Shown piece after piece: positions 1 through 1,745 of a stretch of 1,745 nucleotides of DNA. The position numbers and the translations under genes are program-made. The stretch is taken from NCBI GenBank assembly GCA_000004985.1, contig GG739333.1, one strand, 5' to 3'. Source of the DNA: Naegleria gruberi. Taxonomy: Eukaryota. The stretch's first letter is position 1. Each line of letters opens with the position of its first letter. The notes under the pieces are model-generated. The model made no database searches. It was not told where the DNA came from and was given only the letters and a program-made list of their open reading frames with translations.

Positions 1-2
1 AC

Positions 3-266
3 TCCATCTGCACAAGGTAGAACAAAAGATTCACCCTTCCAGAAACCTTTCTTGTTATCTGCATAACAAGTACATTGTTCAAGCTCATTACAATAACCAT
101 TTCCACTACAAGTAGTTGAGGCATTACATTTAACCAAACTATTACACATAGCTCCTAAATAAGGAGAAACACATGCTGAACAATCTGCACCAGTCCAATA
201 ACCTTTGCCAGCTATGTTATCACAGACACAAATATTCAAATCTGTACATTGACCATGTCCAGAACA
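3..266 (-). other. Divergent cysteine-rich modules on the C-terminal side of the regular array: 8-Cys EGF-like units resembling laminin-type EGF
   Basis: Translation (minus, 266 down to 3): CSGHGQCTDLNICVCDNIAGKGYWTGADCSACVSPYLGAMCNSLVKCNASTTCSGNGYCNELEQCTCYADNKKGFWKGESFVLPCADG. The unit is 156 bp rather than 117. The 'C-x-C-x6-G-Y-W-x-G-x-x-C-x-x-C' pattern, with an extra C-x-x-C after the G..G..C, is the laminin-EGF hallmark rather than the tenascin one. The 117-bp periodicity is lost here. Confidence 0.55.
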
Positions 267-1745
267 AACAGATGAAGCATTGGAAGAAATGCCACCACAA
301 GTGAATTGAGCACAATGACTTCCGTAATATCCAGATTGACAAGAACAATGATCGAAAAAATCACATCTACCTTTTCCAGAACAAGCTGATGCATTTGTTG
401 AGACAATTCCAAAACAATTAAACTGGCTACAATCATATCCATTATATCCAGCTGAACAGGAGCAATTATTTGGGGAGATGCAACCACCATGTCCATAACA
501 TGCTGACGCATTTGTTGAGGCAGTTCCATAACAATCAAATTGACTACAATCATTCCCGTAGTATCCATCTAAACAGGAGCAATTATTTGGTGAGATGCAA
601 CCACCATGTCCATAACATGCTGAACCACTTGTTGAGGCAGTTCCATAACAATCAAATTGACTACAATCATTTCCGTAGTATCCATCTAAACAAGAACAAT
701 TATTTGGTGAGATGCAACCACCATGTCCAGAACATGCTGATGCATTTGTGGAGGCAGTTTCGTAACAATCAAATTCACTACAATCATTTCCATAATATCC
801 AGCTAAGCATGAACAGTTATTTGGTGAGACACAACGACCATAACTAGAACAAACTGAACCACTTGTTGAGGCAGCTCCAAAACAATCAAACTCAGCACAG
901 TCATTTCCGTAATGTTCGTTAGAGCATGAGCAATTATTTGGTGAGATGCAATCACCATGTCCAAAACAAACTGAACCACTTGTTGAGGCAGTTCCAAAAC
1001 AATCAAACTCAGCACATTCATTTCCATAGTATCCAGAGGTGCATGAACAATTATTTGGTGCAATACAATAGCCATTTCCAGAGCAAACTGATGAATTACT
1101 TGGTGAAATATCAAAACATTGGAAAGAACTGCAATCTGATCCACTATATCCAGCTAAGCATGAGCAGTTATTTGGTGAGAGACAGGTACCGTGTCCAGAA
1201 CATACTGAACCATTTGTTGAGGCAATTCCATAACAATCAAATTGACTACAATCATTACCATAGTGTTCATTAGAGCATGAGCAATTATTTGGTGAGATAC
1301 ATCTTCCTTGACCAGAGCAAACTGATGAAGAAGTAAATAATGTACCAAAACATTCGTATTCACTACAATTACTACCATAGTATCCATAGGTGCATGAACA
1401 ATTATTTGGAGCAATGCAATTACCATTTCCAGAGCAAACTGATGAATTACTTGGTGAAATATCAAAACATTGGAAAGAACTGCAATCTGATCCACTATAT
1501 CCAGCTAAGCATGAGCAGTTATTTGGTAAGAGACAGGTACCGTGTCCAGAACATACTGAACCATTTGTTGAGGCAATTCCAAAACAATCAAATTGACTAC
1601 AATCATTACCATAGTGTTCATTAGAGCATGAGCAATTATTTGGTGAGATACATCTTCCTTGACCAGAGCAAACTGATGAAGAAGTAAATAATGTACCAAA
1701 ACATTCGTATTCACTGCAATCATTTCCATAATATCCATCTAAACA
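3..1745 (-). CDS. Internal fragment (5' and 3' ends both outside the window) of a large secreted or surface protein made of tandem tenascin-type EGF-like repeats (581 codons, no stop)
   Basis: Seen in sequence: manual translation of the reverse complement with codons on plus triplets starting at positions divisible by 3 gives an uninterrupted frame across the window; no in-frame plus 'tta', 'cta' or 'tca'. Example stretch (minus, from ~734 down): CSGHGGCISPNNCSCLDGYYGNDCSQFDCYGTASTSGSACYGHGGCISPNNCSCLDGYYGNDCSQFDCYGTASTNASACYGHGGC... The 6-Cys spacing C-x5-C-x5-C-x-C-x8-C-x4-C with 'CxCxxG[YF]xGxDC' is the tenascin/EGF_2 signature. Cys codons are held in every unit while several third positions differ (e.g. 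573-581 'acaggagca' vs 690-698 'acaagaaca', both encoding C-S-C), which points to purifying selection on the protein. Confidence 0.85.
267..1670 (-). repeat. Tandem array of 117-bp (39-codon) coding repeats, 12 complete regular units, each one EGF-like module plus linker
   Basis: The first Cys codon of each 'CSGxGxC' sits at plus 1668-1670, 1551-1553, 1434-1436, 1317-1319, 1200-1202, 1083-1085, 966-968, 849-851, 732-734, 615-617, 498-500, 381-383 and 264-266, exactly 117 bp apart. Adjacent units 480-596 and 597-713 differ at about 7 of 117 nt (~94% identity). A partial unit occupies 1671..1745 at the window edge. Confidence 0.9.
1083..1433 (-). repeat. Higher-order 351-bp (3 x 117) repeat, copy 1
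   Basis: Encodes three unit types in order: 'CSGQGRCISPNNCSCSNEHYGNDCSQFDCYGIASTNGSV', 'CSGHGTCLSPNNCSCLAGYSGSDCSSFQCFDISPSNSSV' and 'CSGNGYCIAPNNCSCTSGYYGNECAEFDC...'. Nearly identical to 1434..1745. The 351-bp spacing also shows in the ORF track: minus out-of-frame ORFs 803..1144, 1154..1495 and 1505..1738 have stops 351 bp apart. Confidence 0.85.
1434..1745 (-). repeat. Higher-order 351-bp repeat, copy 2 (cut by the window edge)
   Basis: Aligns base-for-base with 1083..1394 apart from a few substitutions (e.g. 1179 'gagagac' vs 1527 'aagagac'; 1230 'ccataacaatc' vs 1581 'ccaaaacaatc'). The two copies diverge in the last ~35 bp (1365-1394 vs 1716-1745). There copy 2 resembles the 'CLDGYYGNDC' unit type seen at 663-692. 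Confidence 0.85.

What the first reader, a model, noticed from the sequence alone, without database searches (positions are those of the whole stretch)
267..1670. 117-bp tenascin-type EGF repeats with a 7-aa glycosylation-linker insertion
In tenascin the spacing is C6-x4-C1-x3-C2, giving 31-aa units. Here each unit has C6-x4-C1-x10-C2: an extra Ser/Thr/Asn-rich stretch (YGTASTNASA, FGIASTNGSV, FDISPSNSSV) inserted between the first two cysteines of the next module, giving a 39-aa unit. Almost every linker carries an N-x-S/T sequon (NAS, NGS, NSS), and several have a second one (SPNNCSC is a sequon only where x is not Pro: NCS). These conserved N-glycosylation sites and the Ser/Thr runs point to a heavily glycosylated extracellular stalk or coat protein of a eukaryote or eukaryotic virus, not a bacterial protein.
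Basis: partly seen in the sequence, partly recalled or inferred. Interest (0 to 1): 0.5.

Follow-up and report, generated by a model that had tools for sequence, protein, structure and literature searches.

The report
Amoeba surface-protein EGF repeat array
The window is a piece of one long gene, almost certainly from a Naegleria-type amoeba, that encodes at least 13 head-to-tail copies of a 39-residue EGF module of a surface or secreted glycoprotein; this is an ordinary kind of gene.

Summary
The minus strand is one open frame of 581 codons that runs off both ends of the window. It encodes 13 tandem 39-aa (117-nt) EGF modules with spacing C1-x10-C2-x5-C3-x5-C4-x-C5-x8-C6-x4, followed by two irregular Cys-rich modules.

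The closest named relatives are Naegleria gruberi, N. lovaniensis, N. fowleri and Acrasis kona. One N. gruberi protein is 78% identical over 156 aa. No close relative was found in the prokaryotic or viral collections, so the eukaryotic origin holds.

The "7-aa glycosylation linker" reading needs correcting:
- The 10-residue stretch is the C1-C2 loop inside each EGF module, not a linker between modules.
- Its length is fixed at 10 in 78% of 669 homologous units.
- It has conserved hydrophobic positions, C-[FY]-G-[IV]-...-V-C.
- AlphaFold predicts it ordered (pLDDT 93-97).
- It also occurs in homologues on prokaryote-type contigs.

N-x-S/T sequons are enriched in the eukaryotic loops: 53-60% carry one, against 22-29% expected from shuffles. 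In the prokaryote-context copies the figure is 4%. In the window, 8 of 13 loops carry one, not "almost every".

Verdict: a new member of a known kind, most likely a rigid N-glycosylated EGF stalk. Interest is low.

The parts
3..1745 (-). Single open reading frame of 581 codons, with no start or stop inside the window. It is an internal fragment of a larger gene.
   Evidence: 0 stops in minus frame 0, against 9-73 in the other frames. GC3 17%, GC2 59%; dN/dS about 0.3 between repeat blocks.
225..1745 (-). 13 tandem 117-nt units, each one 39-aa EGF module (C1-x10-C2-x5-C3-x5-C4-x-C5-x8-C6-x4). The array is cut by the window end on its N-terminal side.
   Evidence: All 78 Cys are in register. Pfam EGF_2 scores 210.9 bits against a cut-off of 22.1.
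1044..1745 (-). Two copies of a 351-nt higher-order block of three units (1745-1395 and 1394-1044), 95% identical. This is a recent tandem duplication.
   Evidence: 351-nt period. (block identity 0.954; units 1/4 91%, 2/5 98%, 3/6 97%). (dS 0.11).
459..692 (-). Units 10 and 11, 96% identical at the DNA level. This is a second recent duplication, of a single unit.
1557..1565 (-). N-G-S sequon in the C1-C2 loop of unit 2. Equivalent loop sequons lie at 1440-1448 (NSS), 1206-1214 (NGS), 1089-1097 (NSS), 738-746 (NAS), 504-512 (NAS), 387-395 (NAS) and 273-281 (NAS).
   Evidence: sequons start at aa 61, 100, 178, 217, 334, 412, 451 and 489. I converted these to window coordinates and checked one against the sequence.
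3..224 (-). Two irregular Cys-rich EGF/laminin-EGF-like modules that follow the regular array (CDNIAGKGYWTGADC..., ...CSGNGYCNELEQCTCYADNKKGFWKGESFVLPCADG). They carry one more NAS sequon (aa 541).
   Evidence: Best match is 39% identity over all 113 aa to N. gruberi P0024. No closer protein is in the database.

Best explanation
The window is an internal, intron-free piece of a gene from a heterolobosean amoeba, either Naegleria gruberi or a very close relative. It encodes the extracellular part of a secreted or type-I membrane glycoprotein.

Shown:
- It encodes at least 13 tandem EGF modules of a 39-residue subtype, then two irregular Cys-rich modules.
- The subtype is defined by a fixed 10-residue C1-C2 loop, C-[FY]-G-[IV]-x-[SA]-[TN]-x-x-x-[VA]-C-S-G-x-G-x-C.
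- The repeats are under purifying selection.
- The array has grown recently by tandem duplication of a three-unit 351-nt block and of a single unit.

Predicted:
- Each module folds as a disulfide-knotted EGF.
- The long loop is ordered.
- Consecutive modules have a defined relative orientation, giving a stiff rod.

Inferred:
- The array acts as a rigid spacer or stalk that holds a ligand-binding head away from the membrane. In homologues the head is an NHL propeller, bulb lectin, Kelch or RCC1 domain. Alternatively the array is itself an adhesive surface.
- N-glycans are added in the ER at the exposed tip of the C1-C2 loop in about 60% of modules. They would aid solubility, protease resistance and shielding.
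- The sequons are a eukaryote-specific overlay on a loop that exists for structural reasons.
For: - Coding and repeat anatomy: (dN/dS 0.27-0.37; 78/78 Cys kept).
- EGF identity: EGF_2 2e-63; WIF-1 EGFs 1.7e-7, with 7-aa gaps exactly in the C1-C2 loop; Foldseek hits to Jagged2/Jagged1/DLL4 EGFs at 1e-6, and to integrin beta I-EGFs.
- Lineage. The named top hits are all Heterolobosea. N. gruberi P0012 is 78% identical over 156 aa, with an identical 47-aa stretch. GC3 is 17%.
- No close relatives in prokaryote or viral collections.
- Subtype definition. 524/669 units have x10, and 109/120 hits have at least 2 such units. V is 86% at the last loop position and G 68% at the second.
- Ordered loop and rod. 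Mean pLDDT 95, pTM 0.75 for three modules, no segment below 50, and loop-containing blocks at 93-97.
- Glycosylation. Sequons are in 53% of 453 loops against 22% and 29% in the nulls, in 60% of named Naegleria/Acrasis loops, and in 4% of prokaryote-context loops. N. gruberi has the ALG/OST pathway (PMC4973528).
- Extracellular topology in homologues. There is an N-terminal signal-like segment, the EGF span, then a single hydrophobic span, followed in P0002 by a kinase domain.
- An EGF-like-domain protein appears among N. fowleri excretion/secretion products (PMC12089049).
Against: - The source genome was not found. An exact 40-mer is absent from three collections, and the protein is absent from the protein database. 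The species assignment therefore rests on similarity.
- The window holds no signal peptide, membrane span or head domain, so topology and stalk function are borrowed from paralogues that are 35-45% identical.
- Glycan occupancy is not shown. 5 of 13 loops in the window lack a sequon.
- Units within a protein are not independent, so the shuffle z-scores are inflated.
- The AlphaFold confidence comes from an alignment of gapless repeat units and is a prediction only. I could not inspect coordinates for interdomain contacts or for exposure of the Asn.
Confidence: 0.8

Rival explanations
1. One reading: the extra stretch is a flexible, heavily N- and O-glycosylated mucin-like linker inserted between tenascin-type EGF modules.
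For: The loops are rich in Ser, Thr and Asn. Sequons are enriched.
Against: - The stretch lies between C1 and C2 of one module. The true inter-module linker is C6-x4-C1.
- Its length is exactly 10 in 78% of 669 homologous units.
- F/Y, G, I/V and V are conserved.
- It is predicted ordered, with pLDDT 93-97.
- The same loop occurs with D-P and no sequons in prokaryote-context homologues.
Confidence: 0.08
2. The window comes from a prokaryote that encodes EGF arrays of this subtype, like P0051 and P0104.
For: P0051 and P0104 carry 6-7 x10-loop EGF units. They sit next to an IS110 transposase, a PhdYeFM antitoxin, HpaB, and AAA_14/DUF4143 genes.
Against: - Those proteins are only about 33% identical to the window.
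- They have 0.28 sequons per 100 aa, against 2.1 in the Naegleria/Acrasis proteins. The window has 21 in 581 aa, or 3.6 per 100 aa.
- The window lacks their D-P loop motif.
- The best match is N. gruberi at 78%.
- The scan of 185,579 prokaryotic species genomes found no relative of the window.
Confidence: 0.03
3. The gene belongs to a giant virus of amoebae that captured a host EGF-array gene.
For: The composition is AT-rich (37% GC). Host-derived repeat proteins are common in giant viruses (my own knowledge).
Against: No exact match and no relative in IMG/VR. The nearest sequences are cellular Naegleria proteins on contigs of 240-700 kb.
Confidence: 0.04
4. The window is a decaying pseudogene or a non-coding satellite that happens to be open.
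For: The closest N. gruberi relative, P0012, is an odd gene model with an EGF fragment fused to a methyltransferase. The window's protein is absent from protein databases.
Against: There are 581 codons without a stop in 37%-GC DNA. All 78 Cys are kept. dN/dS is about 0.3 in every block comparison, including the youngest.
Confidence: 0.05

Closest known systems
Naegleria gruberi predicted protein P0012, and other Naegleria/Acrasis 'EGF-like domain-containing' proteins (P0004, P0008, P0024, P0005)
   Same: They share the 39-aa unit, the C1-x10-C2 loop and the SPNNCSC / GYYGxDC motifs. P0012 is 78% identical over 156 aa and has an identical 47-aa stretch. Loop sequons are frequent, at 60%.
   Different: None is the same gene. 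The C-terminal 113 aa of the window have no close match. P0012 is fused to a methyltransferase domain in its gene model.
Tenascin EGF-like repeats (vertebrate tenascin-C/X)
   Same: Contiguous six-Cys EGF modules with no calcium-binding consensus. They share C2-x5-C3, C4-x-C5, C5-x8-C6, C6-x4-C1 and the G-aromatic-x-G motif.
   Different: Tenascin units are 31 aa, with C1-x3-C2 and C3-x4-C4 (my own knowledge). The sponge 'tenascin-X-like' hit P0081 has x3/x5 loops only. Here the units are 39 aa with x10 and x5. The window shows no FN3 or fibrinogen domains, and the lineage is not metazoan.
WIF-1 EGF repeats (PDB 2ygq)
   Same: This is the best solved-structure sequence match (1.7e-7). The spacing is identical except for the C1-C2 loop.
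   Different: WIF-1 has C1-x3-C2. The alignment needs a 7-residue gap in every module.
Jagged/Delta-like and integrin beta I-EGF arrays (PDB 5mwf, 4cc0, 4g1m)
   Same: These are the best fold matches to the predicted three-module rod (Foldseek E 1e-6 to 1e-5).
   Different: TM-scores are only 0.45-0.48 over 103 columns at 24-29% identity. The loop lengths and biological context differ.
Teneurin EGF region (Pfam PF25024 EGF_TEN, PF23106)
   Same: The window scores above the gathering cut-offs: 157 bits against 65, and 95.6 against 24.3. Some homologues also carry NHL repeats.
   Different: The match reflects generic tandem EGFs. No teneurin-specific parts (YD shell, Tox-GHH, intracellular domain) are seen.
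MopE/TSP3-type Cys-rich proteins with EGF arrays on prokaryote-type contigs (P0051, P0104)
   Same: They carry the same x10-loop EGF subtype, 6-7 units each.
   Different: They are about 33% identical to the window. The loop motif is D-P-x-V, with sequons in 1/23 loops. The N-terminal region and the gene neighbourhood differ.

Membership tests
EGF-like domain (Pfam clan EGF; EGF_2 PF07974) | Profile score above the curated cut-off | tested here: met
   210.9 bits against 22.1, 14 stretches, E 2e-63.
EGF-like domain (Pfam clan EGF; EGF_2 PF07974) | Six Cys per module with C4-x-C5 and C5-x8-C6 spacing, and the G-aromatic-x-G motif | tested here: met
   all 13 units. 12 of 13 units have G-[YH]-x-G or an equivalent.
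EGF-like domain (Pfam clan EGF; EGF_2 PF07974) | EGF fold with two small beta-hairpins | tested here: met
   (AlphaFold pLDDT 95, hairpins at 20-24/27-30 and so on). (Foldseek to solved EGF arrays, E 1e-6). This is a prediction, not an experiment.
EGF-like domain (Pfam clan EGF; EGF_2 PF07974) | Disulfide pattern C1-C3, C2-C4, C5-C6 | not testable with these tools
   The model coordinates could not be inspected. This needs mass spectrometry or a solved structure.
Tenascin | 31-aa EGF units with C1-x3-C2 | tested here: not met
   39-aa units with C1-x10-C2 in all 13 units.
Tenascin | FN3 repeats, a C-terminal fibrinogen globe and an N-terminal assembly domain | not testable with these tools
   The window is an internal fragment. 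None of the 120 homologues lists a fibrinogen domain, and two list PF00041.
Tenascin | Chordate/metazoan distribution | tested here: not met
   the nearest named relatives are Naegleria, Acrasis and Willaertia.
Teneurin | EGF_TEN profile above the cut-off | tested here: met
   157.2 bits against 65. The profile is a run of generic EGFs.
Teneurin | YD-repeat shell, Tox-GHH and an N-terminal intracellular domain (type II topology) | not testable with these tools
   These are not in the window. The listed homologues show no such Pfam families and have type I-like topology.
Heterolobosean 39-aa EGF arrays (unnamed subtype) | C1-x10-C2 loop with [FY]-G-[IV] at its start and V/A before C2, followed by S-G-x-G-x-C | tested here: met
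   the window consensus CfG.asTn.SvCSGhG.C matches the family columns.
Heterolobosean 39-aa EGF arrays (unnamed subtype) | N-x-S/T in the distal half of the loop in a majority of units | tested here: met
   window 8/13; named Naegleria/Acrasis proteins 56/94.
Mucin-like disordered glycosylated linker | Variable length, no conserved hydrophobic positions, predicted disorder | tested here: not met
N-glycoprotein | The host has an oligosaccharyltransferase pathway | tested here: met
   PMC4973528 table, read, for N. gruberi. This is conditional on the lineage assignment.
N-glycoprotein | Sequons actually occupied by glycan | not testable with these tools
   Needs glycoproteomics or a PNGase F shift.

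The most novel reading that the evidence does not exclude
The 39-residue module could be a distinct, so far unnamed EGF subfamily. It would be defined by an ordered 10-residue C1-C2 loop and shared between Heterolobosea, other uncultured protists and some prokaryotes, which implies inter-domain transfer. In the eukaryotic branch an N-glycan at the loop tip would have replaced the D-P turn seen in the prokaryotic branch. That would be a site-specific structural N-glycan on EGF modules, analogous to the O-glucose that Notch-type EGFs carry on the same loop.
Probability: 0.3. Interest if true: 0.4.

Novelty: new member of a known kind. Interest (0 to 1): 0.2.

Why it matters
This is an unannotated paralogue in a large family of EGF-array surface proteins in Naegleria-type amoebae, so its value is modest.

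- It documents a well-defined 39-aa EGF subtype whose long C1-C2 loop is structural, fixed in length and preferentially N-glycosylatable.
- It offers a natural control: the same loop without sequons in prokaryote-context genes. This shows how glycosylation sites get layered onto an existing fold.
- For Naegleria biology, which includes the pathogen N. fowleri, such arrays are candidate surface, adhesion or receptor stalks and possible glycan-shielded antigens.
- The 95%-identical three-unit blocks show the array is still expanding. They also explain why such genes are missed or broken in assemblies and annotation.

Tried and rejected
- Locating the source. An exact 40-mer of window 1-40 was absent from genome contigs, viral contigs and metagenome contigs.
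- Protein-guided scans. These found nothing in viral or prokaryotic genomes and only one 39%-identical metagenome fragment, L001.
- Exact-product look-ups for N. gruberi P0012, P0004 and P0008 returned nothing. I therefore could not compare DNA or codon usage with a Naegleria locus.
- A second protein search with the non-repeat C-terminal 113 aa found only one weak hit. No full-length orthologue or architecture was recovered.
- The search for related loci with the 3-unit alignment failed because no conserved 7-10 column stretch exists.
- Cluster look-ups did not reveal the species of the EukProt/MMETSP hits.
- Rfam found nothing on either strand.
- Plus-strand ORFs of 94-125 aa were rejected as antisense by-products of the periodic repeat. 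They are interrupted, whereas the minus frame is open throughout.
- Literature searches found no description of this EGF subtype in Naegleria or Acrasis.
- Rejected readings: tenascin or teneurin membership, a disordered mucin-like linker, and bacterial, viral or pseudogene origin. The reasons are given under the rival explanations and the membership tests.
Full report
**What is in the window**

The 1745-nt window is 37% GC. It has exactly one long open frame, minus-strand frame 0, with 581 codons and no stop. It runs off both ends. The other five frames carry 9-73 stops.

Tandem Repeats Finder reports a 117-nt period with 11.6 copies at 375-1737, and a higher-order 351-nt period at 83% match.

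Cut every 39 residues, the translation gives 13 regular units from window 1745 down to 225. All six cysteines are in register, with spacing C1-x10-C2-x5-C3-x5-C4-x-C5-x8-C6-x4. The window consensus is C..GYYGnDCS.FdCfG.asTn.SvCSGhG.CisPNNCS. Two irregular Cys-rich modules follow at window 224-3.

Codon-position GC is 37/59/17%. dN/dS between three-unit blocks is 0.27-0.37. This is a coding sequence under purifying selection, not a satellite.

Units 1-3 and 4-6 form two 351-nt blocks that are 95% identical, with dS 0.11. Units 10 and 11 are 96% identical. The array is therefore still growing by unequal exchange.

Rfam finds nothing on either strand. The 94-125-aa plus-strand ORFs are antisense by-products of the periodicity.

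The 117-nt/39-aa unit, the C6-x4-C1-x10-C2 spacing and the three quoted loops are all present. Four details need correcting.

- The array spans 225-1745 and is cut by the window end. It is not limited to 267-1670.
- 8 of 13 loops carry N-x-S/T, not almost all.
- 31 + 7 is 38. The eighth extra residue relative to tenascin is in the C3-C4 loop. The tenascin spacing is from my own knowledge, and the sponge tenascin-X-like hit P0081 shows only x3/x5 loops.
- The spacing is exactly the 32-aa WIF-1 type plus seven. HMMER places a 7-residue gap in every C1-C2 loop of WIF-1.

N-C-S at C4 occurs in 11 units, plus one SNCSE.

**What it is**

Pfam gives EGF_2 at 2e-63 over 14 stretches. EGF_TEN, EGF_PEAR1L, EGF_Teneurin and JAG1-like EGF2 also score above their cut-offs.

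Of 252 database relatives, the best named ones are all Heterolobosea: Naegleria gruberi, N. lovaniensis, N. fowleri, Acrasis kona and Willaertia magna.

N. gruberi P0012 is 78% identical over 156 aa and shares an identical 47-aa stretch. Units inside the window differ from one another more than that. This points to N. gruberi itself or a very close relative.

The exact gene is not in the protein database. A search with the non-repeat C-terminal 113 aa gave one weak hit. An exact 40-mer is absent from the three DNA collections. Protein-guided scans found no relative in 185,579 prokaryotic species genomes or in IMG/VR.

**The long loop is a structural feature, not a linker**

- Among 669 EGF units in the 120 best hits, 524 (78%) have exactly ten residues between C1 and C2. 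109 of the 120 proteins have at least two such units.
- The column profile over 453 unique units is C-[F39/Y29]-[G68]-[I37/V18/L11]-x-[S/A]-[N/T/S]-[D/N/S]-[S/P]-[S/N]-[V86]-C-S82-G71-x-G99-x-C.
- A fixed length, with an aromatic, a glycine, an aliphatic residue and a valine conserved, is not what a spacer looks like.
- AlphaFold2 on three window units (aa 50-171), with an alignment of 51 three-unit segments (A1), gives mean pLDDT 95 and pTM 0.75. No segment falls below 50. The 10-residue blocks that contain the loops score 93-97. There is a small bridge at the I/V position and a helical turn at V-C-S-G.
- Foldseek places the model with solved EGF arrays: Jagged2, Jagged1, DLL4, integrin beta I-EGFs and HHIP.
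- A pTM of 0.75 for three tiny modules suggests a defined inter-module geometry, that is, a rod. I could not inspect coordinates, so the packing role of the loop is an inference.

**Glycosylation**

Across the 453 unique x10 loops, 242 (53%) contain N-x-S/T.

| Comparison | Loops with the motif |
|---|---|
| Observed, all 453 unique loops | 242 (53%) |
| Null: residues shuffled within each loop | 101.5 ± 8.0 (22%) |
| Null: columns shuffled | 130.5 ± 7.6 (29%) |
| Reversed motif [ST]-x-N | 93 (20.5%) |

The sequon starts at unit positions 5, 7 or 8, which is the distal half of the loop.

In named Naegleria/Acrasis proteins the fraction is 56/94, or 60%.

A natural control turned up in passing. 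P0051 and P0104 carry 6-7 of the same x10 units behind a MopE/TSP3-type Cys/Asp-rich region. They sit on metagenome contigs with prokaryote-type neighbours: an IS110 transposase, a PhdYeFM antitoxin, a transglutaminase-core protein, a metallo-beta-lactamase, HpaB, AhpC-TSA and AAA_14/DUF4143.

In the four MopE/TSP3-bearing hits grouped with them (P0051, P0055, P0104, P0120), the loops read x-x-[IVL]-x-x-x-D-P-x-V and hold a sequon in 1 of 23 cases. Whole-protein sequon density is 0.28 per 100 aa there, against 2.1 in the heterolobosean proteins.

N. gruberi has a complete ALG/OST pathway (PMC4973528). So the sequon enrichment is real and specific to the eukaryotic copies. It overlies a loop that exists independently of glycosylation. 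Occupancy has not been shown.

**Likely function**

The window has no signal peptide, head domain or anchor, so function is inferred from homologues.

- In homologues the EGF span lies between an N-terminal signal-like hydrophobic segment and a single hydrophobic span near the C-terminus. Examples are P0006, P0008, P0037, P0001, P0003 and P0009.
- P0002 has a kinase domain after the membrane span.
- Head domains include NHL repeats (P0004), a bulb-lectin-like region (P0008, P0068), Kelch, RCC1 and GPS.
- An EGF-like-domain protein is among N. fowleri excretion/secretion products (PMC12089049). EGF plus GPS receptors are drawn for N. fowleri in PMC9283941.

The best-supported reading is a rigid, N-glycosylated extracellular stalk or adhesive array of a surface receptor or secreted protein.

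**Comparison and novelty**

It works like the contiguous EGF arrays of tenascin, teneurin, WIF-1 and Delta/Jagged. It is not a member of those families. The tenascin unit definition is not met, the lineage is wrong, and no family-specific domains are seen.

It is a new, unannotated paralogue of the heterolobosean EGF-array proteins, which is a known kind. I found no paper describing the 39-aa subtype, so the subtype definition and the sequon overlay are small additions rather than surprises.

**Scores**

Interest is 0.2. Novelty is a new member of a known kind. The most novel reading not excluded is that the subtype is a distinct inter-domain-shared EGF subfamily with a structural N-glycan replacing a D-P turn (probability about 0.3, interest if true about 0.4).

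Noticed in passing
L002 5036-7345 (P0051); L005 8001-10193 (P0104): These proteins carry the same C1-x10-C2 EGF units, 6-7 each, behind a MopE/TSP3-type Cys/Asp-rich region. They are encoded on metagenome contigs with prokaryote-type neighbours: IS110 transposase, PhdYeFM antitoxin, HpaB, AAA_14/DUF4143. Their loops use a D-P turn and almost never a sequon (1/23). This suggests inter-domain sharing of this EGF subtype.
   Followed up: partly
P0012 (N. gruberi, 448 aa): The closest relative is an odd gene model. About 155 aa of EGF units are embedded between an unrelated N-terminus and a methyltransferase domain (PF01170/PF08241). It is probably a mis-merged or fragmentary annotation of a repeat-rich locus.
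   Followed up: no
window 1044-1745 and 459-692: There are very recent duplications inside the array. Two three-unit 351-nt blocks are 95% identical, and units 10/11 are 96% identical. Such repeats are prone to collapse or expansion in assemblies, so the copy number in the window may not be exact.
   Followed up: partly
window aa 65-71 and 182-188 (CSGHGTC); aa 79-88 and 196-205 (CLAGYSGSDC): Units 2 and 5 match the metazoan O-fucose consensus C2-x4-[ST]-C3. Units 3 and 6 match the EOGT O-GlcNAc consensus C5-x-x-G-x-[ST]-G-x-x-C6. Both consensus patterns are from my own knowledge. In the family, 28% of units have S/T before C3. Whether Naegleria has the transferases was not checked.
   Followed up: no
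window 3-224 (-): After the regular array come two irregular Cys-rich modules, with GYWTGADC and GFWKGESF motifs and a further NAS sequon. They have only about 39% identity to N. gruberi P0024 and no close database match. They may mark the transition to the next domain of the protein.
   Followed up: partly
P0002, P0017, P0025, P0041, P0118: Several homologues combine the x10-loop EGF array with a membrane span and a C-terminal protein kinase domain (PF07714/PF00069). They look like receptor kinases with an EGF stalk in protists. One is a Naegleria lovaniensis protein, and the rest are from metagenomes.
   Followed up: no
P0099 (Willaertia magna): The EGF units of this heterolobosean relative have C1-x11-C2 in all three detected units. 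The loop length is lineage-tuned rather than universally 10.
   Followed up: no
window 470-847, 926-1273, 1340-1624 (+): Plus-strand ORFs of 94-125 aa, rich in His, Asn and Gln, recur with the repeat period. They are antisense artefacts of the 117-nt periodicity, not genes.
   Followed up: yes
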